A program made the position numbers and the translations under genes. 45,642 nucleotides of DNA, taken from assembly GCA_964544275.1 (NCBI GenBank), contig CAZIZX010000001.1, positions 1 through 45,642 on the forward strand. The letters are read 5' to 3'. Of this stretch, positions 29,108 through 42,545 are shown one piece after another (position 1 is the first letter of the stretch; every line of letters starts with the position of its first letter). Under the pieces are notes generated by a model. That model did not search any database. It worked only from the letters and a program-made list of their open reading frames with translations, and was not told the origin of the DNA. This DNA comes from an uncultured Gammaproteobacteria bacterium (lineage in GTDB: Bacteria; Patescibacteriota; Microgenomatia; UBA12405).

Positions 29108-29674
29108 ATGAAACCCAAAAAAGAGATCTCTCTTTTGCCGGAAGATGTCGATCTCAATTCGCCTTCTGCTCGAATTTTACGTTGGATTACTACTGTCGGT
29201 CGGGTTGTCATCATCGTTACCGAGTTAATAGTCATTGGCGCCTTTCTTTCCCGCTTTTATCTTGATCGCAAAAATGCCGACCTGTCAGAAATTATCCGCC
29301 AACAAAAAGCTATTCTCGACAGTACCAAAAGTTTCGAGTCTGAGTTTGTTGACCTCCAGACCAAACTTAGTACCATCAAAAAAGTTTATTCTGCCTCTCC
29401 CGATTATGAAGGAAAAATAAAAAATTTAGTCAGTAGTACCCCTCTGGACATTAGATATGAGCGTCTAAGTGTCAAAAAAGAAGACAACAATCTAATTCTG
29501 GCCGACATTAGCTTAATGGCCTATCAGGAGGAATCAATTGTAAATTTCATCACTAATCTAATTTTGAACCCGGAAATAGACTCGGTCAACGTTACTTCAA
29601 TCCAAAAGAACTCCAAAGAAAACTTCTATCGGGTCAGGATTTCACTGGTTTTCAAAAAGGACACTCAAAGATGA
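29108..29674 (+). CDS. PilN-like type IV pilus alignment protein
   Basis: EISLLP N-terminus, single TM, coiled coil, ferredoxin-like C-domain pattern. Confidence 0.6.
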   Translation: MKPKKEISLLPEDVDLNSPSARILRWITTVGRVVIIVTELIVIGAFLSRFYLDRKNADLSEIIRQQKAILDSTKSFESEFVDLQTKLSTIKKVYSASPDYEGKIKNLVSSTPLDIRYERLSVKKEDNNLILADISLMAYQEESIVNFITNLILNPEIDSVNVTSIQKNSKENFYRVRISLVFKKDTQR

Positions 29675-30321
29675 ACCTACCCAATAACTATAACCTCAAA
29701 ACACAAGAGCTGACGAAGTTTGTCAAGAAACAAAGTGAAAATCAACGTTTCATGAAAACGCTTGAGACCAGTGCTACCTTCTTTTTGATCACAATTTTTG
29801 GCTTATTCGCCATTCGCCCTACTTTTGTTACCATATCAGCCCTTATTGGCGAGATAAAGGCCAAAGAAATATTAGCCAGTCAAATGCGGGACAGGATAAA
29901 AAGTGTCGTCAAGGCCCAGGAAAACTACGCTTTAGTTCAGGAAAAATATTCCATTATTGAATCAAGCCTCCCCGATGGCTATAGATTTTATAACTCATCC
30001 AGTCAGTTTCAAGCTGCTTTCCAGAACAACCAGATGAAACCCAAGCAGATATCCTACGGTTTCCAGTCGGTTGCTAATAAGCAACCGAACACCAACCTTG
30101 ACAATTACACCCTTCGAACGGGTACCAGTTCTGATTTTTCACAGATACTTAATTTCATTGGCAAAATTCTTAATATTAAGCGGCTCATTGATATTAACCA
30201 AATATCCTTCAGTCTTGATAATAGTAGTGGTTCCGAGAACCCGGGCGGGGAAGTACCTTCGGGTGAAGTAAATTTTGACCTAAATGCCGATGTTTATTAT
30301 TGGAATACCGGAAATGAATAA
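29671..30321 (+). CDS. PilO-like type IV pilus alignment protein
   Basis: TM FAIRPT, coiled coil, SSDFSQILNFIGKILNIKRLIDINQISF (G.Y..I..F...IE...RL..I..I.F pattern). Confidence 0.65.
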   Translation: MNLPNNYNLKTQELTKFVKKQSENQRFMKTLETSATFFLITIFGLFAIRPTFVTISALIGEIKAKEILASQMRDRIKSVVKAQENYALVQEKYSIIESSLPDGYRFYNSSSQFQAAFQNNQMKPKQISYGFQSVANKQPNTNLDNYTLRTGTSSDFSQILNFIGKILNIKRLIDINQISFSLDNSSGSENPGGEVPSGEVNFDLNADVYYWNTGNE

Positions 30322-30601
30322 CAAAAAAACTCCTTCTTATCTCATATTTATTTCCATATTTACCTTAGTTACCGTGCTTATCATGATTGCTCACAAAAGT
30401 TACGACAACCTTGTCCGGCCTACAGAGGTAGTTATGACGTCGGAGAATGTTAAGCCACTCAATACTACCATTGATCTTAGCGTTCTTGAAGAAATCGAAA
30501 AAAGAGAAGAACTTGTCGTACAAGATTTGAATGTTGGACTACCGGTAACTCCGGATTATTTTGAAGACGCCACCGGTACCCCATCAGCTGAGCCTCAATA
30601 A
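30314..30601 (+). CDS. small bitopic membrane protein in PilP position
   Basis: ATG 30314 coupled to the pilO-like stop; N-terminal TM; LNTTIDLSVLEEIEKR. Confidence 0.55.
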   Translation: MNNKKTPSYLIFISIFTLVTVLIMIAHKSYDNLVRPTEVVMTSENVKPLNTTIDLSVLEEIEKREELVVQDLNVGLPVTPDYFEDATGTPSAEPQ

Positions 30602-30602
30602 A

Positions 30603-31919
30603 ATGCGACAAGAAAAAAGGATACCGACACTTTTGGGCTTGTTTTTTTTAACTTTTGTGATTTTTGCCGGCGTAGTTTTGACCCAGCAGAACATTGGACT
30701 GAATATAAAAGCCAGCCCCACCTGTCAGCCCGTCAACCCTCAAGTCTCCAACATCACCCACACCTCAGCCGATGTTTCTTTCCTCACCGAATCGGTATGC
30801 TCTATCGCTTTAAAAATCGACAACCGCACCATCACTAATTTCAAGGAGAACTCAAAAGTCCACTATTTTCAGGTAAATAATCTAAAAGAATCCACTCAGT
30901 ATACTTACAGTTTTGTCATAAACGCCAAAGAAATTCAAAATGACAATTATCGATTTAAAACAGCTAATCGACCGTCAGGTAAAATGCCCACTTCAAATTT
31001 AGCCTGGGGGAAGGTTTATACTGCCGGATACAATCCTGCCGCCGATGCTGTTGTCTATTTAAACATTCCTGGCGCATCCCCACTTTCTTCCCTGGTAACC
31101 TCAAATGGTTATTGGAATATCTCGCTTGCTACCAGTTTCAACATGGACAAAAATTCCTGGTTCACCCCCCCCGACAATGTCGAAGAAGAAATCATAGTTT
31201 TATTTCCCGGTTTCTCACCCACTCAAATCACCAGCAACACCTCAAAAAACAACCCGGTCCCCGATATAATTATTGGCCAAAATTCCTTCTCCAAAATCCA
31301 AATCGATGAATTGGCTTCGGGCATTCTGCTGCCGGAAAGTGGTGGAATACCAAGCATACAACTCGATGTTCTCAATCCTAAGGATAATGAATCAATCAAT
31401 ACCCAAAAACCCGATATTTTTGGTAGCGCCCCCCCCGGCTCTGAGTTGGATATCTTAATTGAGTCACCCCAAAGCTACAACGGCAAAACAACCGCTTCTA
31501 CCAACGGCTCTTGGAACTGGTCTCCACCGGCAAATCTGGAACCGGGAGAACACACCATTACGGTCACCGCTACCGATCCCAAAACGGGCGCCATTCAAAC
31601 TATAAAAAGAAAATTTATTGTCATGGCTGCCGAAGACAACACCCTTGCCTTTACTGCTTCTGGTTCTGCCGTACAACCCAGTCCGACCCCGACGCTTAAA
31701 CCCAGCCCAACCACAGCGGTAGCTACTCCCATCCCCACTTCCGTTCCGACGACCAAGATCAACACTCCCACTTCAATCCCGGTAACCAAAACGGAAAGCC
31801 CAAGTACGGATTCAGGTATACCAGTTGCTGGTACCACCCTTCCCACACTGGCTTTAATTTTATTTGCTTCTTGCCTTCTAGGACTAGCTCATACCATATC
31901 AAAAAAATCAGGTATTTAA
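30603..31919 (+). CDS. surface protein: N-terminal TM, FN3-like, Ig-like (Big) domains, Pro/Thr stalk, IPVAG + TM C-terminus
   Basis: PQVSNITHTSADVSF...VHYFQVNNLKESTQYTY (FN3); SNGSWNWSPPANLEPGEHTITVTATD (Big-like); GIPVAGTT-hydrophobic-KK. Confidence 0.8.
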   Translation: MRQEKRIPTLLGLFFLTFVIFAGVVLTQQNIGLNIKASPTCQPVNPQVSNITHTSADVSFLTESVCSIALKIDNRTITNFKENSKVHYFQVNNLKESTQYTYSFVINAKEIQNDNYRFKTANRPSGKMPTSNLAWGKVYTAGYNPAADAVVYLNIPGASPLSSLVTSNGYWNISLATSFNMDKNSWFTPPDNVEEEIIVLFPGFSPTQITSNTSKNNPVPDIIIGQNSFSKIQIDELASGILLPESGGIPSIQLDVLNPKDNESINTQKPDIFGSAPPGSELDILIESPQSYNGKTTASTNGSWNWSPPANLEPGEHTITVTATDPKTGAIQTIKRKFIVMAAEDNTLAFTASGSAVQPSPTPTLKPSPTTAVATPIPTSVPTTKINTPTSIPVTKTESPSTDSGIPVAGTTLPTLALILFASCLLGLAHTISKKSGI

Positions 31920-31952: not shown

Positions 31953-33233
31953 ATGTTTGTTAAGAAATATCTTTACGCCTTTTTAACCATTGTTTTTATT
32001 TCACTATCTCTAGTTGGAACCCTATATCTAGTCCAAAGAAATCAGGACATTCGCGATCATGCTGCCGGGGAAAACCAGTTGGTTTGCATGCCAATTGATG
32101 ATAGCGGCAACATAACTGCTGAAAAGTATCGATATAATCGAATAAAAGTTACCAACAACACCGGTGGTAATGTAATTATCTGGATCCAGGAAAACCTATG
32201 TGATTACAAAGGGACCATGCCTTCCGCCGGATATCGTTGCGATAATTACCACCGTCGTTACAACGATACTGTCGGCCCCGGTCAATCAAAAATTTACTCT
32301 ATGGATGTTCCTTGCGGGAAAATTGGTCAACTTGATATTGCCCAGGACGATGCCCAAATGGGCACTTATGTTCCGGATTGTTACAACACCACCGATCAAC
32401 AAATTTGGAGCGGAGGCATATCTTTCACCATCAAAGCCGATACCCGCACCAACTGTTGCCCTCAGGTAAACTTAAGTGTCCTCCCCTCTCAAGTGTCACC
32501 CGGAGGCAAAGTGACTTTTGATGCCTCCAGTTCACAACCCCTTGTTTGTGTCGAAATGCAATCAGTAAACGGAACCACCGGCAGTCTCTCTCCGACTAGG
32601 ATAGAAGGAGGTCATTGGAAATGGGACGCCACCGCCATATCTACTCCCGGGAAATATACGGTCACCTTTAGAGGCAACACAAAAGACAGTGGAGTTGGCG
32701 ACTGCCCCAGTCGGGCCATCGGCGATTGGTGCCCCGCCCAGGCGACTTTTGACATTCAACCTGCCACTACCAACACCCCCACCCCTACCGCCACCAAAAC
32801 TCCAACTCCGACAGCCACTAAAACTCCGACTCCCACTGCTACCAAGACACCGACCCCAACTGCCACTCGGGTTCCCACCAACACCCCCAGTCCCACCGCC
32901 ACCAACACTCCACCCCCCGGAGCTACTCTCACATCCACCCCCATCGCCACCAACACCCTCACCCCTACCGCTACTAACACTCCAGCCCCTACTAATACTC
33001 CACCTCCCGGAGCCACCTTAACTCCCACTCCTCTGGCTACCAATACTCCAGTACCCACTCCTGTCATCGCCGAAAGCACGCCCGTTCCTCCTACAGGTAC
33101 TCCAGTTTACGTTGCCCAAGTGCCAAGCCCGACCACGGTTATTTTGCCCCAAGCCGGAGTTAATTTCCCTCTTCAGTTATTAGCTGTTGTTGGTACAATT
33201 ATCACCCTTTTTGGGTTTTTGATATTATTGTAA
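31953..33233 (+). CDS. surface protein: N-terminal TM, Cys-rich domain, Pro/Thr stalk, LPQAG + TM C-terminus
   Basis: VQRNQDIRDHAAG after TM; many Cys; tandem TPTPTATK; ILPQAGVNFPLQLLAVVGTIITLFGFLILL. Confidence 0.8.
   Translation: MFVKKYLYAFLTIVFISLSLVGTLYLVQRNQDIRDHAAGENQLVCMPIDDSGNITAEKYRYNRIKVTNNTGGNVIIWIQENLCDYKGTMPSAGYRCDNYHRRYNDTVGPGQSKIYSMDVPCGKIGQLDIAQDDAQMGTYVPDCYNTTDQQIWSGGISFTIKADTRTNCCPQVNLSVLPSQVSPGGKVTFDASSSQPLVCVEMQSVNGTTGSLSPTRIEGGHWKWDATAISTPGKYTVTFRGNTKDSGVGDCPSRAIGDWCPAQATFDIQPATTNTPTPTATKTPTPTATKTPTPTATKTPTPTATRVPTNTPSPTATNTPPPGATLTSTPIATNTLTPTATNTPAPTNTPPPGATLTPTPLATNTPVPTPVIAESTPVPPTGTPVYVAQVPSPTTVILPQAGVNFPLQLLAVVGTIITLFGFLILL
32770..33060 (+). repeat. tandem Pro/Thr repeats (TPTPTATK-type x3-4; TNTPPPGATLT(S/P)TP(I/L)ATNT x2)
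   Basis: Seen directly in the translation; the DNA is synonymously diverged; boundaries approximate. Confidence 0.85.
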
Positions 33234-33237
33234 CCGG

Positions 33238-34167
33238 ATGACCACGATTATTGGTGTCAATATTTATTCACTTTTTGAAGCTCTCCGCCCGGCCCAATGG
33301 ATAAAAAACCTAAATCTATTTGCCGCCGCGATTTTAAACGGTCAGCTGACTAACTCCGAAGTATTTCTAAAAAGCACTGGTGCCTTCGTCGTATTTTGTT
33401 TACTATCTTCATCCTCCTATTTAATAAACGATCTTGTTGACATAAAAAGCGACCGGCTTCATCCCACCAAAAAAAACCGACCCCTTGCTCGTGGCGACGT
33501 GCCTGAATCTTTGGCTGTAGTCGCAGCTTTTATTTTATTAATACTTGGCTTATTCTTGGCCCTTTTTATTAATCCAGGGTTTTTGTTGATATCTCTTCTA
33601 TTTATAATTTTGCAGTACTCCTACTCACTGGTACTAAAAAAGAAAGCCATACTGGATATTATTGGTATCGCTTTTTTCTTTATATTAAGGGCCTTTGCTG
33701 GCGAAATTGCTACCGGGTATCACTTACCAGTTTGGATTATGCTCACGGTAATTTTCCTCTCTCTATTTATTGCCAGCGGCAAAAGACGCAGCGAACTAAC
33801 TAACGTTGGTACCAAGTCCAGGTCCGCCCTCAAAGGATACAAAACGTCCTTGCTCAATTTTTACACCACCATGTTTGCGGTCTGCACTCTCATTGCATAT
33901 GCTATGTTCACTTTTCTTGAAGAATCCGTCAATTTCCAGGGTATAATTCACAACTTTCTTCTGGAAAATTTTCCAGCAGCTTTAGGCAGAAAATGGTATA
34001 TGGCCACTTTATTGCCGGTAATTTTTGGGATCATGCGTTATGGTCAGATAATCTTTGAAATGCAGGAAGGCGAGCGACCGGAAAAAGTTATCGCCACTGA
34101 CATACCTTTAATCCTTTCGGTTCTCGCCTGGGGCTTGATGCTAATTACAATTATCTATGTTCTTTAA
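33238..34167 (+). CDS. UbiA-family prenyltransferase, decaprenyl-phosphate phosphoribosyltransferase (DPPR synthase)-like
   Basis: LRPAQWIKN, SSYLINDLVDIKSDRLHPTKKNRPLARG, ASGKRRSEL. Confidence 0.85.
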   Translation: MTTIIGVNIYSLFEALRPAQWIKNLNLFAAAILNGQLTNSEVFLKSTGAFVVFCLLSSSSYLINDLVDIKSDRLHPTKKNRPLARGDVPESLAVVAAFILLILGLFLALFINPGFLLISLLFIILQYSYSLVLKKKAILDIIGIAFFFILRAFAGEIATGYHLPVWIMLTVIFLSLFIASGKRRSELTNVGTKSRSALKGYKTSLLNFYTTMFAVCTLIAYAMFTFLEESVNFQGIIHNFLLENFPAALGRKWYMATLLPVIFGIMRYGQIIFEMQEGERPEKVIATDIPLILSVLAWGLMLITIIYVL

Positions 34168-35749
34168 GCGGCGCAGTGTTTCCAGACTTATTTTAGCCAT
34201 TCTTGCCTTACTTGCTTTTATAACCCGATTTTACAAACTTGATTGGGGAGAAGGTTTCTTCTTTCACCCGGACGAACTTAATATGGCTGTTGCCGTTACC
34301 AGAATGTCACCACTCGATTTCGATCCCCGCTTTTATGCTTATGGCCAATTTCCCCTGTTTCTGACTTATTTTTCCGTCCAAATCTCTAAATTTTTCAGCC
34401 ATGAACCCATTTCTTTATCCCAAGCTGTTATTGGCCTCAGATTTTGGTCGGCCATATTTTCCCTCATTTCTGTCTATATATTTTTTCACATTGGCAAAAA
34501 TCTGTTCAAAAAATCTGTTTACCCGCTTATATTCACCTTTTTAATAATATTCACCCCAGGACTGATACAATTATCCCACTTTGGTACAACCGAGTCGTTA
34601 CTGATCCTTATCTTTGCTGCCAATATCCTGATTTCTCTCAAACTCATCAACAAAAATAAATTAAATTATAAATTGATTTTTGTAGCTTCAGCCCTCAGTG
34701 GTGTCGCCATCAGTACCAAAATCAGTTCACTTATCTTAACCGGACCGATTTTTTTATCATTTTTATTAATTTTCCTGAAAAAAAAGAAATTGGCAGCATT
34801 TTTTAAACCTTTTCTAATTTTTACCACCTTAAGTTTATTATTCTCCATCCTCTCTTCCCCTTACAATTTAAAAAATATAAACGATTATCGTTCAACTCTA
34901 AGTTACGAAACAGCAGTTGCTCTGGGTAGCACTCAAGTCTTTTATACCAATCAATTTAGAAACACCACTCCTTATTTATTCCAGCTTATTCGGATATTTC
35001 CTTACACTCAAGGTTTATTGATATTGCCGTTGTCAGCCCTGGGATTATTTTTCTTATTCAAAAAAATCGACCCAAAATGGTCACTTGTATTGATACCCAG
35101 CCTGGTCTACTTTCTGTATTTTGGTCAAATTTATGTCAAATGGACCCGCTTTATGTCGCCTGTCTTTTTTATTTTTCCTCTGTTGGCTACTTACTTTTTT
35201 AGTGTTCAAAAAAATTACAAACTGACATCATTTCTTATTATGGTTTCAGCTGTTCCCGGTCTTTATTTCTTTAAATCTTATTTTCAACCGGACACCCGTT
35301 TGCAGGCAAACAATTGGCTAATTCAAAATATTCCACCTGAAGTCAACATTTTGTCAGAGTCAGGCAATATCGTCAACTTACCTCACTCAGATCACCGGTA
35401 TCATGTCAATAATTTTGACTTTTACACACTTGAAGACAACCCGCTTCAGTTAGACACCTTGGCCAGAGAAATTCGCCTGTCTGACTATATCATTGTCCCC
35501 TCCAGACGTGTCTTCAAAAACCAGACAGGAACTGATTTTCCGATCAGTCACCGTTACTATTCTCACCTGTTTTCCGGCGGTTTGGGATTTTCCAAAATAA
35601 AACAGTTTGAACACGACAATTCTTTCCTCCTCGATCCCGAAAAAGCCGAAGAAACCTGGTCGGTTTTTGACAATCCGACTGTTCGGATCTTCAAAAAAAC
35701 CAATTCCCTGCCGTTGGAACAATATCAACAAACTCTTGGAGGTTTATGA
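34157..35749 (+). CDS. GT-C fold glycosyltransferase
   Basis: LDWGEGFFFHPDE after TM1, FYAYGQFP, HFGTTE, KWTRFMSP. Confidence 0.8.
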   Translation: MFFKRRSVSRLILAILALLAFITRFYKLDWGEGFFFHPDELNMAVAVTRMSPLDFDPRFYAYGQFPLFLTYFSVQISKFFSHEPISLSQAVIGLRFWSAIFSLISVYIFFHIGKNLFKKSVYPLIFTFLIIFTPGLIQLSHFGTTESLLILIFAANILISLKLINKNKLNYKLIFVASALSGVAISTKISSLILTGPIFLSFLLIFLKKKKLAAFFKPFLIFTTLSLLFSILSSPYNLKNINDYRSTLSYETAVALGSTQVFYTNQFRNTTPYLFQLIRIFPYTQGLLILPLSALGLFFLFKKIDPKWSLVLIPSLVYFLYFGQIYVKWTRFMSPVFFIFPLLATYFFSVQKNYKLTSFLIMVSAVPGLYFFKSYFQPDTRLQANNWLIQNIPPEVNILSESGNIVNLPHSDHRYHVNNFDFYTLEDNPLQLDTLAREIRLSDYIIVPSRRVFKNQTGTDFPISHRYYSHLFSGGLGFSKIKQFEHDNSFLLDPEKAEETWSVFDNPTVRIFKKTNSLPLEQYQQTLGGL

Positions 35750-37449
35750 AAACCAAAAACAGGATAATACTCGCCTTTGTCTTGGCACTGGCCACCATCC
35801 TCAGGTTTACTGGTTTTAACTGGGACCAAAACCACCACCTCCATCCCGACGAAAGATTTTTGACCATGGTAACTACCTCTATCGAAATTCCTCAATCGTT
35901 GACGCATTACTTTGATCCCAACATTTCCACCATGAATCCCTACAATGTTGGCTACGATTTTTATATCTACGGCACAGTTCCTCTTTACTTAACCAAAATA
36001 ATCGGTAATCTGGTCAACCAAAAAGACTATTCCACCATTCATCTGGTCGGTAGAGCCTTATCGGCCCTATTTGACTTAAGTGTTGTTCTTATTCTTTTCA
36101 AATTAGTCCACCAGTTTTTTAACTTCAAAACTGCCATTTTATCTGCTTTTCTATATGCCCTCATGGTACTCCCCATCCAGCAATCACATTTTTTCACTGT
36201 CGATTCCTTCCTCAACTTCTTTCTTTTTTTAAGCTTTAGCCTACTTGTCTATTTCCTCAAATACCCCAGGCGCTGGCTATATTTAATTGGTTCTGCCTTT
36301 ATTTTTGGTCTTAGCTCAGCCACCAAAATATCATCTCTTTATTTTGCTCCCATTCTCGGACTGATAATTTTATTTAAATATTTATCTTCAAAAGATCAAA
36401 ACCGCCTTAAAATATTTCTGGTAACTGGCCTGATATTTATTATCGTCAGTCTCTTCACACTTCGTTTAACCCAACCTTCGTTTTTCGCCAACGCCAGTTA
36501 TTTGAACTGGCAGATTAACCCCAAGTTCTTGGCCAATATAAAACAACTCGAATCCTTTAATCGACCCCAATCCTGGTTTCCGCCAGCCCTCCAGTGGCAA
36601 GGTACGCTACCGGTAGTGTTTCCGCTCCAAAACATTGTACTTTGGGGCTTGGGTTTACCGTTGGGAATAATATTCTTGGTATCAATTCCAAATTCATTAA
36701 GCTTCATAAAAAAATCGTCACCAAAAGCTCAGGTAATTCCTCGGATTATCACTTTCTTATCAATAGTTTGGATTTTTTTCCTCCTGATTTATCAGGGCAG
36801 CCAATTTTGCAAAACCATGCGCTATTTTTTGCCCCTCTACCCGTTCATTGCCATCATCAGCTCACTCTATCTAAGTCGTTTGCTGCCAAAACACAAAAAC
36901 TTTCTGGTTTTATTATTACTGGTAACTGCAATTTATCCGCTTTCATTTATCTCCATTTATACCCAGCCCACCACTCGGATTACAGCTTCACGTTGGATTT
37001 ATGACCATATCCCCGCCGGCTCTGTTCTAGCCAATGAACATTGGGACGATCCTTTACCTCTTAATTTAAACCAACATTCTTCCTCAATCTATCCCGGAGA
37101 AATGCTATCTCTCTATGATCCTGATTCTGAAGATAAATGGCGAACAATAGCCAACCAATTGGGTCGCTCTGATTATATTATCTTGTCTTCCAACCGCCTC
37201 TATGCCCCGATTGGCCATAATCCCGACCAATATCCTATAGCAACAAAATATTACCAATCCCTTTTTGACGGTTCTCTTGGTTTTCAAAAAGTTGCCCAGT
37301 TTACCTCCTATCCTTGTTTTCCGCCCCTTAGCCGGTCACTCTTTTGTCTAAACGACGACAAATCAGAAGAAGCCTTTACCGTTTATGACCACCCCAAAGT
37401 GATGATTTTCCAAAAAACTAACTCTTTTTCGCCAGAAGTATTATATTAA
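35746..37449 (+). CDS. GT-C fold glycosyltransferase (paralogue of previous)
   Basis: FNWDQNHHLHPDERF, FYIYGTVP, QQSHFFTVD, KTMRYFLP, LANEHWDDPLP. Confidence 0.82.
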   Translation: MKTKNRIILAFVLALATILRFTGFNWDQNHHLHPDERFLTMVTTSIEIPQSLTHYFDPNISTMNPYNVGYDFYIYGTVPLYLTKIIGNLVNQKDYSTIHLVGRALSALFDLSVVLILFKLVHQFFNFKTAILSAFLYALMVLPIQQSHFFTVDSFLNFFLFLSFSLLVYFLKYPRRWLYLIGSAFIFGLSSATKISSLYFAPILGLIILFKYLSSKDQNRLKIFLVTGLIFIIVSLFTLRLTQPSFFANASYLNWQINPKFLANIKQLESFNRPQSWFPPALQWQGTLPVVFPLQNIVLWGLGLPLGIIFLVSIPNSLSFIKKSSPKAQVIPRIITFLSIVWIFFLLIYQGSQFCKTMRYFLPLYPFIAIISSLYLSRLLPKHKNFLVLLLLVTAIYPLSFISIYTQPTTRITASRWIYDHIPAGSVLANEHWDDPLPLNLNQHSSSIYPGEMLSLYDPDSEDKWRTIANQLGRSDYIILSSNRLYAPIGHNPDQYPIATKYYQSLFDGSLGFQKVAQFTSYPCFPPLSRSLFCLNDDKSEEAFTVYDHPKVMIFQKTNSFSPEVLY

Positions 37450-38236
37450 CACTATTTTTTTCACCTTCATCATCACCATTCAATTTATCTATCTTGTTTA
37501 TCGGCCACAGAACTAATCTGCCCCAATAACCTAAATTTATATCTCCGAACCTATCTAACTGCCCAAACAATCCCTTTTCCACTAAATTTTTCCCAATGCC
37601 GTAAAACAGGAAGTGTGACCAGGGCAGGCAGTAGTGCGTCACTGTTCGTACTGAATCAATCACAAAACCCGACTTTTCCACTCGTCCCCGCAAATCATTG
37701 GTGTCATAAAGTCTTTTGTGATCAGCCCAAATACCCGACAACCACCATATATTGCTTGGTAAGTGCTTCCCTGTTGTCTTTTCCAGAATGTAGTTTAACG
37801 GATCCCACAAAAAGGGATAATTTTTATTTGGTACGGTTACAATCAGCCTGCCTCCCGGCTTCAACACTCTAAAAATTTCTCTCAGCGCCTTGCTGTCATC
37901 TTCCACATGCTCCAGTATTTCCGACGCAATTACTTTGTCAAAATAATTATCCTCAAATGGTAATTTACTTACATCCGCCCTGATCAACTTTACCTTACCG
38001 TCTAATTTATCTGCTTTTTTCAAATAATCATTGTTCAAGTCCACTCCCCATATTTTTAATTTGGGAAACAATCTCCCGATTGTATTTACATAAAATCCTC
38101 GCCCGCATCCCACTTCAAGCAGCCTTCTGTCTTTTTTTTCATCGATAGACCCCAAAATCACTGCCGCTCGCCTTTTATATGCCGGGTCAACTTCCTTACT
38201 TAACACATTATCAATTACCGTTAAACACTTTTTCAT
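37418..38236 (-). CDS. class I SAM-dependent methyltransferase
   Basis: LLEVGCGRG, ADVSKLPFEDNYFD, EILEHV, RVLKPGG. Confidence 0.92.
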   Translation of the reverse strand: MKKCLTVIDNVLSKEVDPAYKRRAAVILGSIDEKKDRRLLEVGCGRGFYVNTIGRLFPKLKIWGVDLNNDYLKKADKLDGKVKLIRADVSKLPFEDNYFDKVIASEILEHVEDDSKALREIFRVLKPGGRLIVTVPNKNYPFLWDPLNYILEKTTGKHLPSNIWWLSGIWADHKRLYDTNDLRGRVEKSGFVIDSVRTVTHYCLPWSHFLFYGIGKNLVEKGLFGQLDRFGDINLGYWGRLVLWPINKIDKLNGDDEGEKNSVNIILLAKKS

Positions 38237-39347
38237 AATTACTTATTGTCTTACTATAGTTAAATATTTTTTTAATTTTTGGAAAGTTTTCGATATACAG
38301 CTGTCTGTTCTCAATCACTTTTACTATCCCTTCAGCAATTGCTTCTGGACTTTTAGGTCTCACAATTACGCCCATACCGCTTGTCCTAACCGCCCACCTT
38401 GCTCCGGGAATATTGGTACAAACAGTCGGAATGCCGGACAACAGGGCTTCTATTTGCGAAGAGGGGAAACAATCGCTCTTTGATGGTTGCACTAACACGT
38501 CTAACGACTTATAAAAAACCGCCATCTCTTTCTTGTCGTTTATCAATCCCAAAAGACTGATATTCCTCTCGTATTTTTTAACCAGATGTTCAATTTTCTC
38601 CCAATATCGCTCATAAACAACCTTGTTTTCCCCGACAAAAATAAAATGGGCCTTTGGCAATTTTTTCATTACTAACGGAATTGCCATCAGTAAATATTCC
38701 ACCCCTTTCTCCTCCACAAACCTTCCCGAAAATCCAATCCTTATCTTATTTTTCAATCTATGTTTGCCAATAAATTTTTCCACATCACCCCGACTTATTT
38801 CCGGCAAGTCAAACAGAGGCATGACAACTTTCCACTTATTCCGGAATTTTTTTAACAATTTTGAATGATTAGCATAATCTTGGCTTTGTATAAATATCCC
38901 ATCCGACAATTTCATCGATAGGAAAGTCAAAAAATAATAAAATTTCTCCACCAGGCGGGCAAACAATCCGCTATTATCAGGTAGCACCAAATCTCCATTA
39001 TGCACCAGAAATAATTTTTTGGAAAAAATTTTGCTAACTATACTTACCAACAAAACTTCTTGAAGAGGTAAATAAGCCACCACCGCTTCATTTTTTCTGA
39101 CCAACCTTACTAACTCAATCGGATAAAGGGGAGTAATTACACTTCTGAAAAATTTGAACCAATAAGATAATCTGGTTACGACCACACCGTTCAAAACCTC
39201 GTTTTGTTTCAATTTTTTATCATGCTGACTGCACAAGACACTGACCTTGTGAGATTTACTAGCCAACCCTTCGGCCAATCTAGCTGCGTACTGGGTCAAC
39301 CCGGTCCAGTGAGGCCGGTAATAAGTTAGGGTGAATAATATTTTCAT
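38211..39347 (-). CDS. GT4 family glycosyltransferase
   Basis: MKILF.LTYY.P..TG, FSGRFVEEKG, DVLVQPS..DCFP..QIEA..SG.P. Confidence 0.92.
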   Translation of the reverse strand: MKILFTLTYYRPHWTGLTQYAARLAEGLASKSHKVSVLCSQHDKKLKQNEVLNGVVVTRLSYWFKFFRSVITPLYPIELVRLVRKNEAVVAYLPLQEVLLVSIVSKIFSKKLFLVHNGDLVLPDNSGLFARLVEKFYYFLTFLSMKLSDGIFIQSQDYANHSKLLKKFRNKWKVVMPLFDLPEISRGDVEKFIGKHRLKNKIRIGFSGRFVEEKGVEYLLMAIPLVMKKLPKAHFIFVGENKVVYERYWEKIEHLVKKYERNISLLGLINDKKEMAVFYKSLDVLVQPSKSDCFPSSQIEALLSGIPTVCTNIPGARWAVRTSGMGVIVRPKSPEAIAEGIVKVIENRQLYIENFPKIKKIFNYSKTISNYEKVFNGN

Positions 39348-39861
39348 AATTAACTTTAATAATTTTTGCTGTCAGCTTTTTACTGTTTAAATAATCAATA
39401 ATCAACTGATCATCTTCCAAAAAGTAATCAGCTTTAATCTTTTTTAACAGCGTTTCCTTGTACAAATGAGGTTGTTGGTTTTGTAAGTTCAAATATATTT
39501 TTGAAAATACTTTTTCCAACTTTCTTTTTTTGAGCCAGACATAAGTTTCCTTTTCCAAAAATGAATATCTACTGGACACCACCACCATTGTTGTGTTTTC
39601 CAACTTAGCCATTTTTTTTATCATTTCAATATTTTTCGCAATTGGCGGCCTAAACAAATAAAAATGCGACACCTTTCTTATCAATTGCTCGATTACCGAA
39701 TTCGGATATCTGTAATGAATTTTGTTGCTCCTTCCTCGGAACAGCAGTTCAATCAGTCGCTTTGGTACCAGCAGAGGCTTGTCAATAATCACTCCATCCA
39801 AATCTACAGCTACTAAATATTTTCTCGCCATCTTCTGAATTATAACAGTAAGCAATCCCAT
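39280..39861 (-). CDS. HAD-superfamily hydrolase (5'-nucleotidase-like)
   Basis: VAVDLDGVI motif I, VSSR, FLEDD. Confidence 0.7.
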   Translation of the reverse strand: MGLLTVIIQKMARKYLVAVDLDGVIIDKPLLVPKRLIELLFRGRSNKIHYRYPNSVIEQLIRKVSHFYLFRPPIAKNIEMIKKMAKLENTTMVVVSSRYSFLEKETYVWLKKRKLEKVFSKIYLNLQNQQPHLYKETLLKKIKADYFLEDDQLIIDYLNSKKLTAKIIKVNYENIIHPNLLPASLDRVDPVRS

Positions 39862-39880
39862 ACTTTAGATATAATTAACC

Positions 39881-40468
39881 ATGCACCCTGTTGCTTTTAA
39901 GTTAAAACAATATTTATTTTGGCAACCACCGCTCGATTTATTATCGATCTTATTGACAGCAAAAAGTGGCCGTTTTTTATTTATTATCTTAAATTACTTT
40001 ATTTGGCCCTTTCTCGCTTACCTTTCATTTATCTTAGTAGCTACCAACCCCAATATTTTTTGGCAAATACTATCCGCCTTGGTTTTAAGTGTTTTGATTG
40101 AATATTCCCTCAAATCATTTCTACCCTGGAAAAGACCAATTTCCCAAACCAAAAACGTCTTACCTTTTAAGCTGGAACAGCGATGGGCGCTTCGTGGCAG
40201 TTTCCCATCAGGTCACACCGCCAAAACTTTAATCTATTTTTTGTTTATCATCCAATACCATGTTTTTTCTCCTATAACTTTTTTGCTTATAAACATACCC
40301 TTGATTGCCTCTCGAATTATACTTGGCCTTCATTACCCCATCGATATTCTTGGAGGATTATTAACCGGATGGACAGTTTGGTTAGTTATTCGTTACATTA
40401 CTTTCCCCCCAATCCTAACCAACCTCGTTCGTGATATATTAAACCTAATTTTTAATTATGTTTTCTGA
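39881..40468 (+). CDS. PAP2-family membrane phosphatase
   Basis: K....KRP, SFPSGH, SRIILGLHYPIDILGG. Confidence 0.92.
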   Translation: MHPVAFKLKQYLFWQPPLDLLSILLTAKSGRFLFIILNYFIWPFLAYLSFILVATNPNIFWQILSALVLSVLIEYSLKSFLPWKRPISQTKNVLPFKLEQRWALRGSFPSGHTAKTLIYFLFIIQYHVFSPITFLLINIPLIASRIILGLHYPIDILGGLLTGWTVWLVIRYITFPPILTNLVRDILNLIFNYVF

Positions 40469-42545
40469 TTTAAAATTTATTATTTTCTGGTGGCTTACAA
40501 TATTTCTCGTTTCGGGATTTTCACTGCCTCTCGTATTTTCTATATTTCCTAAATTCTGGGATAAAGGCTATATCTTTGCCAAGATAACTTCTTTAATCAT
40601 CCTGACCTATTCTATTTTTGTTTTTGGTGTTCTAAAAATTCTTCCTTTCACCAATCTTTCAATTATTTTTCTGCTCTTCATTTTTGCTTCCTTAACCGGC
40701 CTATTATTATCACGCAAGAATAGATATAAATTACTTACCAACACTCTAAAATCAAACTGGAAAAAGTTTCTTTTTGAAGAAATATTATTCCTGTCTATTT
40801 TAATGTTCTGGTCATACATTAGAGGTTTCAGCCCCGACATTGAAGGTCTGGAAAAGTTTATGGATTGGGGATTCGTTAATTCTAGTCTCAGGTCTACTTT
40901 TATGCCGCCGACTGATATGTGGTTTTCCGGTCAACCCATAAATTATTATTATTTTGGCCATCTCGTTTTTGCCCTTTTGACCAAGTTGTCAAACATCGAT
41001 AGTGCCATTACTTACAATCTGTCAATTGCCAGTATAACCGCCCTCACCTTTGTTAGCACTTTTTCTATTGCTACTAATTTAATCACCAATTTCTTCAAAA
41101 AAATTTCTTCAAAAAAATTTTTAACCGTTGGATTAATTTCTGCTCTCCTCTTAACCTTTGGTGGCAACCTTCACGCTGTCTACAAAATTACCGCCATAAA
41201 CATAAAGACCAATGGCGATAAACTGGTACTGTCTTCCTCTGCCATCAAAGAAGCGGCCAATTCTTATTGGTATCCTGACGCCACTCGTTTTATTGGATTC
41301 GATCCGGAAACCGATGACAAAACAATCCACGAATTTCCCTCGTATAGCTTTGTTGTTTCCGACCTCCACGGCCACATGAACGGTATCCCAATAGTTCTTT
41401 TCTTTTTGGCCTTTTTATTTTCAATTTCTTTATCACCCCAATCATTCTCTTCCTGGAAATTAATAATCCCTTCGGGCTTTGTTCTTTCCATAGCCTACAT
41501 GACCAACGCTTGGGACATTGCCATCTATGGCTTATTTTTTGGACTTTTCCTCTTTCTGAATAAACTTAAGAAATATGATCTAAAAAATTCAATTACCAAA
41601 ACTTTTTTCAACGGGTTTTTGGTTATAGTTGTCTGGTATCTCTTCACCTTGCCTTTCTCTCTCAACTTTGTACCAATGATGGAAGGAGTTCGGCTGTCTG
41701 ATTCAAGAACTCCCTTTTTTCAGTTATTTATTCTTTACGGAGGTTTCTGGCTAATTTCTTTTCCATTTGTTTTAATTTTTGCCAAGAGTAAATTTAATCT
41801 TAAGAAAATTAATAACTCTGATCTTTTTGTTGCCTGTTTAATTTTTATTGCCACCATTCTAATTCTTATCCCGGAGATCGCTTACATCAAAGACATTTAT
41901 ATTTACGAACACCGCCGCGCCAACACCATGTTTAAGCTGACTTATCAAGCTTTTATCATGTACTCACTTGCCAGTGGCTATATTGTCATCCGTCTGCTAA
42001 ATATTCTAAAAAAAATTCCCAAGATAATTTACTGCTTGGTTTTTGCACTGGTCTTCTCTTGTCATATAATCTATCCTTACTTTGCCATAAATTCTTATTA
42101 CGGAGGCCTGAGGCAGTATAAAGGTTTATGGGGATTGAGTTTTTTAAATAATGTTTATCCGGACAATTACAACGCTATAAAATGGTTAAACGAAAACGTT
42201 GCGGGTCAACCACACATAGTGGAAGCTGTCGGTGACAGCTATACCACCTTCAACCAGGTGTCAATGGCCACAGGACTCCCGACAATCCAGGGCTGGCTTG
42301 TTCACGAATGGCTGTGGCGCGGTGGTTATGATCAACCTGGAGCTCGGGCCGAAGAAGTCAGAATAATTTATGAATCACCCCATGCCTCAGAAGTAAAACC
42401 CCTGCTCATGAAGTATTCCATAAAGTATCTCTTCCTCGGCGACAAAGAATACGAAAAATATCCTAAATTAGACGAAAAGAAATTCGAAGAAATTGGTGGC
42501 CGTATAGTCTTTCAGTCGGGTGATACCAAAATTTATGAATTTTAA
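40458..42545 (+). CDS. DUF2298 / YYY-type multi-pass membrane protein (predicted GT-C-like)
   Basis: EGLEKFMD, DMWFSGQPINYYYFGH, EFPSYSFVVSDLHGH, NAWD, NTMFK, EAVGDSY, TGLPTIQGW..HE..WR. Confidence 0.85.
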   Translation: MFSDLKFIIFWWLTIFLVSGFSLPLVFSIFPKFWDKGYIFAKITSLIILTYSIFVFGVLKILPFTNLSIIFLLFIFASLTGLLLSRKNRYKLLTNTLKSNWKKFLFEEILFLSILMFWSYIRGFSPDIEGLEKFMDWGFVNSSLRSTFMPPTDMWFSGQPINYYYFGHLVFALLTKLSNIDSAITYNLSIASITALTFVSTFSIATNLITNFFKKISSKKFLTVGLISALLLTFGGNLHAVYKITAINIKTNGDKLVLSSSAIKEAANSYWYPDATRFIGFDPETDDKTIHEFPSYSFVVSDLHGHMNGIPIVLFFLAFLFSISLSPQSFSSWKLIIPSGFVLSIAYMTNAWDIAIYGLFFGLFLFLNKLKKYDLKNSITKTFFNGFLVIVVWYLFTLPFSLNFVPMMEGVRLSDSRTPFFQLFILYGGFWLISFPFVLIFAKSKFNLKKINNSDLFVACLIFIATILILIPEIAYIKDIYIYEHRRANTMFKLTYQAFIMYSLASGYIVIRLLNILKKIPKIIYCLVFALVFSCHIIYPYFAINSYYGGLRQYKGLWGLSFLNNVYPDNYNAIKWLNENVAGQPHIVEAVGDSYTTFNQVSMATGLPTIQGWLVHEWLWRGGYDQPGARAEEVRIIYESPHASEVKPLLMKYSIKYLFLGDKEYEKYPKLDEKKFEEIGGRIVFQSGDTKIYEF

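What the first reader, a model, noticed from the sequence alone, without database searches (positions are those of the whole stretch)
33238..42545. Possible lipid-linked pentose (ribose/arabinose) surface-glycosylation pathway next to Thr-rich proteins
Seen: a UbiA/DPPR-synthase-like gene directly follows the Pro/Thr proteins, then two HPDE-motif GT-C paralogues, a PAP2 phosphatase, and a DUF2298 (YYY) membrane protein. A third GT-C lies at 3669. Established: in mycobacteria, UbiA (Rv3806c) makes polyprenyl-P-ribose-5-P from PRPP, a PAP2 enzyme (Rv3807c) is proposed to dephosphorylate it, and DprE1/E2 epimerise it to the arabinose donor for GT-C transferases. No DprE1/E2 is in this window. Inference: polyprenyl-P-ribose could be used directly by GT-C enzymes to O-pentosylate the TPTPT stalks, a protein modification I do not know to be described in CPR.
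Basis: inference. Interest (0 to 1): 0.62.

Follow-up and report, generated by a model that had tools for sequence, protein, structure and literature searches.

The report
Lipid-linked ribose surface-glycosylation gene cluster
A tiny uncultured (CPR, Shapirobacteria-type) bacterium carries a conserved gene cluster that very probably loads ribose onto a membrane lipid and passes it to three membrane sugar-transferases outside the cell; this kind of pathway is already known in other bacteria, and the proposed target, the neighbouring Thr-rich proteins, is possible but not shown.

Summary
The UbiA gene (33238-34167) is a true Rv3806c-type phosphoribosyltransferase. It passes NCBIfam's curated cut-off and keeps all eleven PRPP-binding positions. 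The two HPDE proteins are full-length paralogues with a confident GT-C fold. DUF2298 also models as GT-C, closest by TM-score to arabinosyltransferase AftA. PAP2 has all its catalytic motifs.

The core order UbiA-GTC1-GTC2-PAP2-DUF2298 recurs in about 55 species-level relatives. A hypervariable slot between GTC2 and PAP2 carries GT4, methyltransferase, HAD, SDR-epimerase or extra GT-C genes.

No DprE1/E2-type gene lies in the window or in 80 related loci, so ribofuranose is the likeliest sugar.

Direct use of polyprenyl-P-ribose by a GT-C enzyme was shown in 2024 (Citrobacter), and pilin O-arabinofuranosylation is known in Pseudomonas, so this is a new variant of a known kind.

The link to the Pro/Thr stalk proteins rests on synteny alone, and unrelated genes (UvrD, S20) share that synteny. 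In four other CPR lineages the same UbiA is instead coupled to a WecA-like primer enzyme, which points to a glycan polymer. The acceptor remains open.

The parts
33238..34167 (+). UbiA-fold polyprenyl-phosphate 5-phosphoribosyltransferase (DPPRS/PPPRS, Rv3806c type)
   Evidence: NF008978 scores 213.7 bits against a cut-off of 207. PDB 8j8j matches at E=2.5e-41. The PRPP-binding residues of Rv3806c (PMC10994848) map to R17 K23 Y61 N64 D68 K78 R81 Q126 Y129 K134 F148, and these are invariant in 78 orthologues. It is the most conserved gene of the block, with median identity 72%.
34157..35749 (+). GTC1: GT-C-fold glycosyltransferase with an HPDE motif (residues 37-40) in the first outer loop. It overlaps UbiA by 11 nt.
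   Evidence: AF2 model has pLDDT 89 and pTM 0.90. Foldseek against PDB finds STT3, ALG9/12, ArnT, PglB, AglB and Pmt4 at TM about 0.5, E down to 8e-10. P38 D39 E40 are invariant in 36 orthologues.
35746..37449 (+). GTC2: paralogue of GTC1 with HPDER (residues 33-37). It overlaps GTC1 by 4 nt.
   Evidence: hhalign against GTC1 gives probability 100%, E=7e-78. Pfam PMT_2 E=1e-9. A profile search of PDB hits Pmt1 at E=6e-4. H33 P34 D35 E36 R37 are invariant.
37418..38236 (-). Class I SAM methyltransferase, part of the variable slot
   Evidence: Methyltransf_11 E=8e-25. Present in only 7 of 80 related loci.
38211..39347 (-). GT4 (Leloir, cytoplasmic) glycosyltransferase, part of the variable slot
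   Evidence: Glycos_transf_1 E=2e-26. Present in about 36 of 80 loci, with 28-53% identity.
39280..39861 (-). HAD-like phosphatase (DLDGV motif I), part of the variable slot. It is a candidate phosphoribose 5-phosphatase.
   Evidence: Only weak library hits: NCBIfam HAD E=0.008 and PDB 5'(3')-deoxyribonucleotidase E about 0.09. It is orthologous (44% identity, E=7e-37) to the gene divergent from UbiA in L090, a locus that has no PAP2.
39881..40468 (+). PAP2 membrane phosphatase. It is a core gene and overlaps DUF2298 by 11 nt.
   Evidence: PAP2 E=9e-12. The motifs KX6RP (KSFLPWKRP), PSGH and SRX5HX3D can be read in the sequence. It is present with DUF2298 in 56-57 loci. The closest solved structure is PgpB.
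40458..42545 (+). DUF2298 / TIGR03662 'YYY' membrane protein, predicted to have a GT-C fold
   Evidence: Pfam E=6e-100 and TIGR03662 E=1e-146. AF2 model has pLDDT 80 and pTM 0.87. The ten Foldseek PDB hits with E<=5e-4 are all GT-C enzymes: STT3, AftA (TM 0.47/0.53), DPY19 and AglB. No sequence-level PDB hit.
30561..31919 (+). PT1: surface protein with an N-terminal TM, FN3/Big_13 domains, a Pro/Thr/Ser stalk and an IPVAG + TM + KK sorting signal. It is a candidate acceptor (unproven).
   Evidence: Big_13 E=6e-9. An orthologue sits upstream of UbiA in every related locus that reaches that far, and also in L086 and L090.
31953..33233 (+). PT2: TPTPT-repeat protein ending in LPQAG + TM. It is a variable member and a candidate acceptor (unproven).
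   Evidence: Sequence read. LPx[AS]G-type counterparts occur in roughly 25 of 69 loci.
29108..30601 (+). PilN-like, PilO-like and 105-aa bitopic membrane proteins (context module upstream of PT1)
   Evidence: The window copies have no Pfam hit. However, 23 of 25 and 16 of 25 orthologues hit Pfam PilN and PilO (best E 1.5e-7 and 6.4e-6). The module is also next to the cassette in L086 and L090.
27477..29090 (+). MurJ (MOP-superfamily flippase) at the head of the co-directional gene string. It is the only flippase-type gene nearby.
   Evidence: MurJ E=5e-74 with a secondary MatE hit. It is not next to the module in L086, so it is probably just the lipid II flippase.
3669..4988 (+). GTC3: a separate PMT_2-type GT-C protein with an LDEA motif, 29 kb away. 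Its link to the cassette is unproven.
   Evidence: PMT_2 E=2.4e-14. Best NCBIfam hit is TIGR03663 (Agl23 family), E=7e-10, below the cut-off. Not homologous to GTC1/2 by hhalign.

Best explanation
The cluster most likely encodes an extracytoplasmic pentofuranose glycosylation pathway built on a lipid-linked ribose donor.

1. Strongly supported by homology: the UbiA enzyme transfers 5-phosphoribose from PRPP to a polyprenyl phosphate at the inner face of the membrane.
2. Inferred: the 5-phosphate is removed by the core PAP2 phosphatase and/or the accessory HAD-like enzyme, giving polyprenyl-P-ribofuranose.
3. Inferred from absence: no epimerase is encoded here, so the donor stays ribose. Relatives with an SDR epimerase in the variable slot may convert it to another pentose.
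4. Unknown: the flippase. Candidates are a GT-C-like protein (as proposed for TfpW and Agl23) or MurJ.
5. Fold shown, activity inferred: three GT-C-fold enzymes use the donor outside the membrane to build or decorate a surface glycoconjugate. These are the two HPDE paralogues and DUF2298.
6. Inferred: the strain-variable slot (here GT4, methyltransferase, HAD) tailors that glycan.

The acceptor is unresolved. My estimate is about 45% for a wall- or lipid-anchored glycan polymer, about 30% for the Pro/Thr stalks of the sortase-anchored neighbours, and the remainder for both or something else.
For: Donor synthase:
- NF008978 scores above its curated cut-off.
- PDB 8j8j Rv3806c matches at E=2.5e-41.
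- All 11 PRPP-contact positions named in PMC10994848 are kept (10 identical; Tyr157 to Phe, a change that paper reports in some mycobacteria), and they are invariant in 78 orthologues.

Coupling:
- UbiA/GTC1 overlap by 11 nt, GTC1/GTC2 by 4 nt, and PAP2/DUF2298 by 11 nt.
- The core order is kept in about 55 species, and 11 loci have just these five genes.
- UbiA is the only lipid-sugar synthase in the block.

GT-C fold:
- GTC1 model pLDDT 89, with GT-C hits only down to E about 0.04.
- DUF2298 model pTM 0.87, with its top ten hits all GT-C.

Precedent:
- undP-Ribf is used directly by a GT-C enzyme, and an SDR or DprE1/E2 encoded in the cluster decides the pentose (PMC11127046).

Sugar:
- No DprE1/E2-type gene in the window.
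- In 80 loci covering 10 kb on each side, the only classical SDR is far from the cassette and the extended SDR occurs in 11 loci.

Surface glycan:
- There are 23 different gene arrangements in the slot between GTC2 and PAP2 among 57 loci.
Against: - No biochemical or expression data. The two metatranscriptomes from a study that holds this organism showed nothing.
- No dedicated MATE or GtrA flippase is in the cassette.
- Which phosphatase acts on the 5-phosphate is open, and the PAP2 topology is not resolved.
- In sister lineages a CrtI-like FAD oxidoreductase (NF005560) sits next to UbiA. If a copy exists elsewhere in this genome, the sugar or the lipid could be altered.
- GT-C fold matches have TM-scores of only about 0.5, and donor specificity cannot be read from a fold.
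Confidence: 0.62

Rival explanations
1. The GT-C enzymes O-ribofuranosylate the Pro/Thr stalks of the neighbouring sortase-anchored proteins (PT1, PT2), so the block from PilN-like to DUF2298 is one protein-glycosylation unit.
For: - PT1 abuts UbiA on the same strand in every related locus that extends upstream, and it always keeps a P/T/S-rich stalk before an [ILV]Px[TSA]G + TM signal.
- The PilN/PilO/PT1 module stays next to the cassette in two more distant lineages, despite rearrangements (L086 at 52% and L090 at 46% UbiA identity).
- A sortase is in the window.
- The best fold matches of GTC1 are protein-modifying GT-C enzymes (STT3, PglB, AglB, Pmt4, DPY19) ahead of Emb/Aft.
- Precedents exist: TfpW adds Araf to pilin, and actinobacterial PMT modifies Pro/Thr regions (my own knowledge).
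Against: - The evidence is adjacency only. UvrD, FemAB, S20 and MetRS are equally syntenic, including in L090.
- PT-rich stalks are common in this genome (3 genes in this window), so a PT neighbour is not rare.
- PT2 is absent from more than half of the relatives.
- Five other lineages have UbiA without this module: four couple it to a WecA-like primer and L087 lacks it too.
- Fold ranks differ little in TM-score.
Confidence: 0.28
2. A mycobacterial-type arabinose pathway. The ribose lipid is epimerised to polyprenyl-P-arabinofuranose by DprE1/DprE2, or by a non-orthologous oxidoreductase pair, encoded elsewhere in the genome.
For: - UbiA + PAP2 + several GT-C enzymes mirrors Rv3806c + Rv3807c + Emb/Aft.
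- The best TM-score for DUF2298 is to AftA.
- The whole genome was not searchable.
- A FAD oxidoreductase accompanies UbiA in sister lineages.
Against: - In all described systems the epimerase genes are clustered with the synthase (PMC11127046).
- None is in the 45.6-kb window or in 80 related loci.
- The sister-lineage FAD enzyme is CrtI/HpnE-like, not of the VAO type like DprE1, and it is absent here.
- Earlier agents reported no DprE1/E2 step in related genomes (these are leads I did not check).
Confidence: 0.1
3. The UbiA product and the GT-C enzymes are not one pathway. The GT-C proteins and DUF2298 would use polyprenyl-P-hexose or act as flippases or scaffolds. The PAP2 would simply recycle polyprenyl diphosphate, and the ribose lipid would serve another end.
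For: - The best NCBIfam hit for PAP2 is undecaprenyl-diphosphate phosphatase (E=2e-11, below the cut-off).
- Agl23, a GT-C-like protein, has flippase activity in vitro (PMC11182771).
- Donor specificity cannot be read from a fold.
- L087 has UbiA with no GT-C nearby.
Against: - Overlapping reading frames UbiA-GTC1-GTC2 are kept across about 75 loci.
- A GT-C gene lies next to UbiA in 8 of 9 independent lineages examined.
- No polyprenyl-P-hexose synthase (GT2/GtrB type) is in the block.
Confidence: 0.1

Closest known systems
Three-component extracytoplasmic pentofuranose system of Citrobacter youngae O1/O2 (PPPRS-PRP ORF15, MATE flippase ORF14, GT-C ORF12 = GT136; Kelly et al., PNAS 2024, PMC11127046)
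   Same: A Rv3806c-type synthase makes polyprenyl-P-ribofuranose from PRPP, and a GT-C enzyme uses it directly outside the membrane. The pentose identity is set by whether an epimerase gene is present in the cluster: 11 relatives here carry an SDR epimerase, this window carries none.
   Different: - The phosphatase is not fused. Here there is a PAP2 and a separate HAD-like protein.
- There is no MATE flippase in the cassette.
- There are three GT-C-fold proteins of other families (an HPDE pair without a library model above cut-off, and DUF2298) instead of one GT136. GT136 membership was not tested.
- The host is a monoderm-type CPR bacterium with no O antigen, and the acceptor is unknown.
Mycobacterial decaprenyl-P-arabinose pathway (Rv3806c, Rv3807c PAP2, DprE1/DprE2, Emb/Aft GT-C enzymes)
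   Same: Both have the same synthase family with identical PRPP-binding residues, a PAP2 partner and several GT-C transferases. The cell-wall gene context is similar (MurJ and FemAB here, and an LCP ligase in L090).
   Different: No DprE1/DprE2 in the window or in related loci. The GT-C enzymes resemble Emb/Aft only at fold level. There is no GtrA-type flippase.
Pseudomonas aeruginosa group IV pilin O-arabinofuranosylation (PsPA7_6246-6249 + TfpW; bioRxiv 10.1101/2020.04.19.049825)
   Same: A PPPRS-derived lipid-linked pentofuranose is put on Ser/Thr of a surface protein by a GT-C enzyme. PilN/PilO-like genes lie next to the cassette here.
   Different: There the sugar is Araf, with DprE1/E2 in the cluster, and the target pilin gene is adjacent. 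Here no pilin gene is in the window, and the candidate targets are sortase substrates.
DUF2298 / TIGR03662 'Chlor_Arch_YYY' and TIGR03663 (Agl23) families
   Same: The 695-aa protein is a clear member of this family (490 bits against a cut-off of 300).
   Different: The family has no assigned function, and I found no paper on it. Here it models as GT-C and is fixed next to PAP2 and a DPPRS gene.

Membership tests
Polyprenyl-phosphate 5-phosphoribosyltransferase (DPPRS/PPPRS, Rv3806c; NCBIfam NF008978) | Score above the curated family cut-off and clearly above other UbiA subfamilies | tested here: met
   213.7 bits against a cut-off of 207. Heme O synthase scores 42.8, UbiA 30.7 and DGGGP-type 54 or less. 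PDB Rv3806c matches at E=2.5e-41, against 1.7e-7 for the next family.
Polyprenyl-phosphate 5-phosphoribosyltransferase (DPPRS/PPPRS, Rv3806c; NCBIfam NF008978) | PRPP and phosphoribose contact residues that are not shared with prenyltransferases (Rv3806c R22 K28 Y70 N73 D77 K87 R90 Q135 Y138 K143 Y157) | tested here: met
   The window protein has R17 K23 Y61 N64 D68 K78 R81 Q126 Y129 K134 F148 (alignment; residue list from PMC10994848). These are invariant in 78 orthologues. The Y157 to F change is reported in some mycobacteria.
Polyprenyl-phosphate 5-phosphoribosyltransferase (DPPRS/PPPRS, Rv3806c; NCBIfam NF008978) | Catalytic activity with PRPP and polyprenyl phosphate | not testable with these tools
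   Needs a membrane assay.
Three-component pentofuranose system (Kelly 2024) | Phosphoribose 5-phosphatase (HAD-type PRP domain, fused or separate) | tested here: inconclusive
   A separate HAD-like gene has the DxDG motif but only weak library hits. Its orthologue is next to UbiA in L090, which lacks PAP2. A PAP2 is also present.
Three-component pentofuranose system (Kelly 2024) | Dedicated MATE-family flippase in the cluster | tested here: not met
   There is no MATE or GtrA gene between 29108 and 42545. The only MOP-superfamily gene is MurJ at 27477-29090.
Three-component pentofuranose system (Kelly 2024) | GT-C transferase of family GT136 | not tested
Only the GT-C fold was established.
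Mycobacterial DPA pathway | DprE1 (FAD_binding_4/ALO oxidase) and DprE2 (SDR reductase) | tested here: not met
   None among the window ORFs, and none within 10 kb either side in 80 related loci.
GT-C glycosyltransferase superfamily (GTC1, GTC2) | Multi-helix membrane domain, acidic motif in the first outer loop, and a GT-C fold | tested here: met
   The basic N-terminus, TM1 at 6-25 and then an invariant HPDE. Foldseek hits are to GT-C enzymes only, at probability 1.0.
GT-C glycosyltransferase superfamily (DUF2298) | GT-C fold | tested here: met
   The model has pTM 0.87, and all hits with E<=5e-4 are GT-C. The catalytic residue was not assigned, and there is no sequence-level link.
Protein O-mannosyltransferase family GT39 (PMT) | Pfam PMT above the cut-off and a MIR domain in the luminal loop | tested here: not met
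   GTC1 scores 22.4 bits on PMT, against a cut-off of 22.7. GTC2 hits only PMT_2, and there is no MIR hit. Fold similarity to Pmt4 is TM 0.53.
PAP2 acid phosphatase superfamily | Motifs KX6RP, PSGH and SRX5HX3D | tested here: met
   KSFLPWKRP, FPSGHT and SRIILGLHYPID can be read in the translation. Pfam PAP2 E=9e-12.

The most novel reading that the evidence does not exclude
In Shapirobacteria and neighbouring Microgenomates, three neighbouring gene sets form one functional unit: the PilN/PilO-like membrane module, the sortase-anchored FN3/Ig protein with a Pro/Thr stalk, and the polyprenyl-P-ribofuranose cassette. In this reading the HPDE GT-C paralogues and DUF2298 (a previously unrecognised GT-C family) O-ribofuranosylate the stalks of wall-anchored proteins. 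The hypervariable slot between GTC2 and PAP2 then diversifies the glycan from strain to strain. This would be the first protein O-ribofuranosylation system and would give DUF2298 its first function.
Probability: 0.2. Interest if true: 0.75.

Novelty: new variant of a known kind. Interest (0 to 1): 0.45.

Why it matters
CPR/Patescibacteria envelopes are almost uncharacterised, and these cells live attached to hosts, so their surface glycans probably matter for attachment and for phage and host recognition. This cassette is a core feature of the lineage: its UbiA gene is more conserved than MurJ. It would give a concrete and testable chemistry, a PRPP-derived ribofuranose on a lipid carrier. It would also give a first functional context for the large DUF2298/YYY family and for an HPDE GT-C family that no curated model covers. 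The principle itself was established in 2024 for Gram-negative O antigens, and earlier for mycobacteria and Pseudomonas pilins. The gain is therefore one of extension and new parts, not a new mechanism.

Tried and rejected
I therefore could not run the whole-genome test for DprE1/DprE2, PRPP synthase, WecA-like or LCP genes.
- Expression: only two metatranscriptomes were linked to this organism, and they contained no contigs on the region.
- Promoter and terminator scans were not above shuffled expectation.
- Sequence-profile searches against PDB gave nothing for DUF2298. For GTC1 they gave only chance hits, E>=0.04 on a 32-residue stretch of unrelated proteins. Fold prediction was needed instead.
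- The scan's look-up for look-alike stretches returned nothing.
- The contigs carrying P0121 were too short to show context, apart from the upstream FAD gene.
- A type IV pilin as target was considered: there is no prepilin motif in the window.
- The reading that GTC3 at 3669 belongs to the same paralogue family is rejected.
- The reading that the UbiA is a quinone or heme prenyltransferase is rejected.

Full report
**What is in the window**

The interval 33238-42545 holds eight genes:
- UbiA, 33238-34167 (+)
- two GT-C paralogues, 34157-35749 and 35746-37449 (+)
- PAP2, 39881-40468 (+)
- DUF2298, 40458-42545 (+)

The domain assignments are significant. The reading frames are tightly packed:
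- The TPTPT protein PT2 stops 4 nt before UbiA.
- UbiA and GTC1 overlap by 11 nt.
- GTC1 and GTC2 overlap by 4 nt.
- PAP2 and DUF2298 overlap by 11 nt.

A third GT-C gene at 3669 is real (PMT_2, E=2.4e-14). It is not related to the HPDE pair beyond the first helix (hhalign probability 5.8%). No ORF in the window has a DprE1- or DprE2-type domain.

**The donor enzyme**

The UbiA protein scores 213.7 bits on NCBIfam NF008978 (decaprenyl-phosphate phosphoribosyltransferase, cut-off 207). It scores 54 bits or less on every quinone, heme, chlorophyll or archaeal-lipid prenyltransferase model. Its best solved relative is M. tuberculosis Rv3806c (8j8j, E=2.5e-41).

The Rv3806c structure paper names the PRPP contacts R22, K28, Y70, N73, D77, K87, R90, Q135, Y138, K143 and Y157. 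It states that the phosphoribose-binding sites are not shared with prenyltransferases (PMC10994848). In the alignment these positions map to R17, K23, Y61, N64, D68, K78, R81, Q126, Y129, K134 and F148. All are invariant in 78 orthologues; one orthologue has Y at the last position.

**The transferases**

GTC1 and GTC2 are full-length paralogues (hhalign probability 100%, E=7e-78). Both have an invariant HPDE just after the first transmembrane helix. They also share a C-terminal AEE[ST][FW][ST]V[FY]D.P motif.

Curated libraries barely see them: PMT scores 22.4 bits against a cut-off of 22.7, PMT_2 gives E=1e-9, and there is no NCBIfam hit. An AlphaFold2 model of GTC1 is confident (pLDDT 89, pTM 0.90). 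It matches only GT-C enzymes: STT3, ALG9/12, ArnT, PglB, AglB, Pmt4 and DPY19 at TM about 0.5, with Emb, AftA and AftB weaker.

DUF2298 has no sequence-level relative in PDB. Its model (pLDDT 80, pTM 0.87) has ten hits with E<=5e-4, and all are GT-C enzymes. The best TM-score is to the arabinofuranosyltransferase AftA (0.47/0.53). I found no paper on DUF2298 function.

**The phosphatases**

PAP2 carries all three catalytic motifs and is fixed next to DUF2298 in all 56-57 loci that have both. I could not resolve its membrane orientation.

The HAD-like gene is accessory in this lineage (3-4 loci). Its orthologue (44% identity, E=7e-37) sits divergent from UbiA in the distant locus L090, which has no PAP2. 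Either enzyme could remove the 5-phosphate, and this is open.

**Conservation**

A scan of species-representative genomes gave 80 loci, nearly all Shapirobacteria-type. The gene order is MetRS, S20, MurJ, PilN-like, PilO-like, small protein, PT1, (PT2), UbiA, GTC1, GTC2, [variable slot], PAP2, DUF2298, UvrD, FemAB.

Median identity to the window proteins:

| Protein | Median identity |
|---|---|
| UbiA | 72% |
| MurJ | 63% |
| DUF2298 | 59% |
| GTC1 | 47% |
| PT1 | 45% |
| PAP2 | 43% |
| GTC2 | 41% |

The donor synthase is thus under stronger constraint than the lipid II flippase.

The slot between GTC2 and PAP2 shows 23 arrangements among 57 loci. It is empty in 11. Elsewhere it carries GT4, class I or FkbM methyltransferases, HAD, DUF362, extra GT-C-like proteins or, in 11 loci, an extended SDR epimerase. 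This pattern resembles serotype-type diversification of a surface glycan. It also parallels the Citrobacter case, where an SDR gene in the cluster switches ribose to xylose.

**More distant lineages**

The UbiA family is large: 1121 clusters at 50% identity with E<=1e-30. I looked at eight further lineages with 39-55% identity.

- L086 and L090 keep PilN, PilO, a small protein and a PT1-like protein next to GT-C genes and UbiA. L090 also keeps DUF2298, UvrD and FemAB, and adds an LCP ligase.
- L083/L088, L089, L091 and L092 show a different operon: a protein of about 500 aa (unannotated, or a weak GT2 hit), in three of the four a GT-C protein, a small protein (about 120-156 aa), then a WecA/MraY-like Glycos_transf_4 gene directly before UbiA. 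Often there is a convergent PEGA-SH3 protein.
- L093 has a divergent PMT_2/TMEM260_N GT-C gene.
- L087 has no GT-C gene nearby.

A GT-C partner is therefore nearly universal. A primer transferase typical of polyprenyl-PP-linked polymers is the commonest other partner.

**Which sugar**

In all described systems the epimerase is encoded with the synthase. None is in this window or in the 80 relatives, so ribofuranose is the likeliest sugar.

There are two caveats. Second, sister lineages carry a conserved FAD oxidoreductase directly beside UbiA. It belongs to NCBIfam NF005560 ('hypothetical protein', 392 bits) and is CrtI/HpnE/protoporphyrinogen-oxidase-like. It is absent from the window and from all 80 close relatives by tblastn. 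By family it could act on the isoprenoid chain rather than the sugar.

**Which acceptor**

For the Thr-rich proteins:
- PT1 always abuts UbiA.
- PT1 always keeps a P/T/S-rich stalk and an [ILV]Px[TSA]G + TM sorting signal.
- A sortase is nearby.
- The PT1 module stays linked to the cassette in L086 and L090.
- GTC1's best fold matches are protein-modifying GT-C enzymes.

Against:
- UvrD, S20 and MetRS are just as syntenic, so conserved order here is not evidence of shared function.
- PT stalks are common in this genome.
- The WecA-coupled operons, the LCP ligase in L090, the number of transferases and the strong conservation of UbiA fit a wall or lipid-anchored polymer at least as well.

I put the polymer at about 45% and the stalk proteins at about 30%.

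**Comparison and novelty**

The mechanism matches the three-component pentofuranose systems (PMC11127046). It also matches, in part, the mycobacterial DPA pathway and Pseudomonas pilin arabinosylation. It differs in these respects:
- separate PAP2 and HAD phosphatases
- no dedicated MATE or GtrA flippase
- three GT-C-fold proteins from uncatalogued families, including DUF2298
- a hypervariable tailoring slot
- a CPR host

No paper in the library links Patescibacteria to this enzyme. Earlier agents of this scan described the same cassette in at least 22 other genomes. Their pointers to the 2024 paper and to DUF2298 as a GT-C family were leads that I tested here.

My verdict is a new variant of a known kind. 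The donor step is well supported, the acceptor is undetermined, and interest is moderate.

Noticed in passing
L090:3104-4387, L086:8703-9932, L087:7636-8901, L084:1-597, L085:1-525: A conserved FAD oxidoreductase lies directly beside the DPPRS-type UbiA in four sister lineages. It belongs to NCBIfam NF005560 / PRK07233 ('hypothetical protein', 392 bits) and is CrtI/HpnE/protoporphyrinogen-oxidase-like. It is absent from this window and from all 80 close relatives. It could act on the polyprenyl chain or be a non-orthologous sugar oxidase.
   Followed up: partly
window 37418-39861 and the equivalent slot in L004-L082: The gap between GTC2 and PAP2 is a hypervariable slot, with 23 gene arrangements in 57 loci. 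It carries GT4, three kinds of methyltransferase, HAD, DUF362, extra GT-C-like membrane proteins or an extended SDR epimerase (11 loci, e.g. L043:12328-13383). It looks like serotype-style diversification.
   Followed up: partly
window 29108-30601: The two small bitopic proteins upstream of PT1 have no Pfam hit themselves. However, 23 of 25 and 16 of 25 of their orthologues hit PilN and PilO. No PilM or pilin gene is in the window. The PilN-PilO-small protein-PT1 module recurs in L086 and L090.
   Followed up: partly
L083:8938-9999, L088:8947-10008, L089:8967-10055, L091:8026-9540, L092:8961-10028: In four other Patescibacteria lineages the UbiA gene is immediately preceded by a WecA/MraY-like Glycos_transf_4 gene, in most cases with overlapping frames. 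In three of them a GT-C gene lies in the same operon. A convergent PEGA + SH3_3 protein often follows.
   Followed up: partly
L090:13485-14564: A LytR-CpsA-Psr (LCP) ligase gene lies two genes after DUF2298 in this distant relative, followed by UvrD and two FemAB genes. This hints that the glycan is attached to the wall.
   Followed up: no
window 35650-35749 and 37350-37449; DUF2298 residues 557-663: GTC1 and GTC2 share a C-terminal AEE[ST][FW][ST]V[FY]D.P motif in an outer alpha/beta domain. The C-terminal domain of DUF2298 shows a weak, non-significant profile similarity to that domain (hhalign probability 24%).
   Followed up: partly
window 39861-39881: The divergent HAD-like and PAP2 genes start only 19 nt apart. 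The called GT4 and HAD frames overlap by 68 nt, so one start codon may be miscalled, or the promoters lie inside coding sequence.
   Followed up: no
L006-L008, L011, L012, L036 and others: Many of the related MAG records are titled 'uncultured Gammaproteobacteria bacterium', and one is titled 'Candidatus Methanoperedens'. All carry the Shapirobacteria-type block, so these record names are unreliable.
   Followed up: no
window 3669-4988: The best NCBIfam match of the separate PMT_2-type GT-C protein is TIGR03663, the Agl23 family (E=7e-10, below the cut-off). The Haloarcula member of that family showed lipid-linked oligosaccharide flippase activity in vitro (PMC11182771). This makes the protein a possible flippase candidate.
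   Followed up: no
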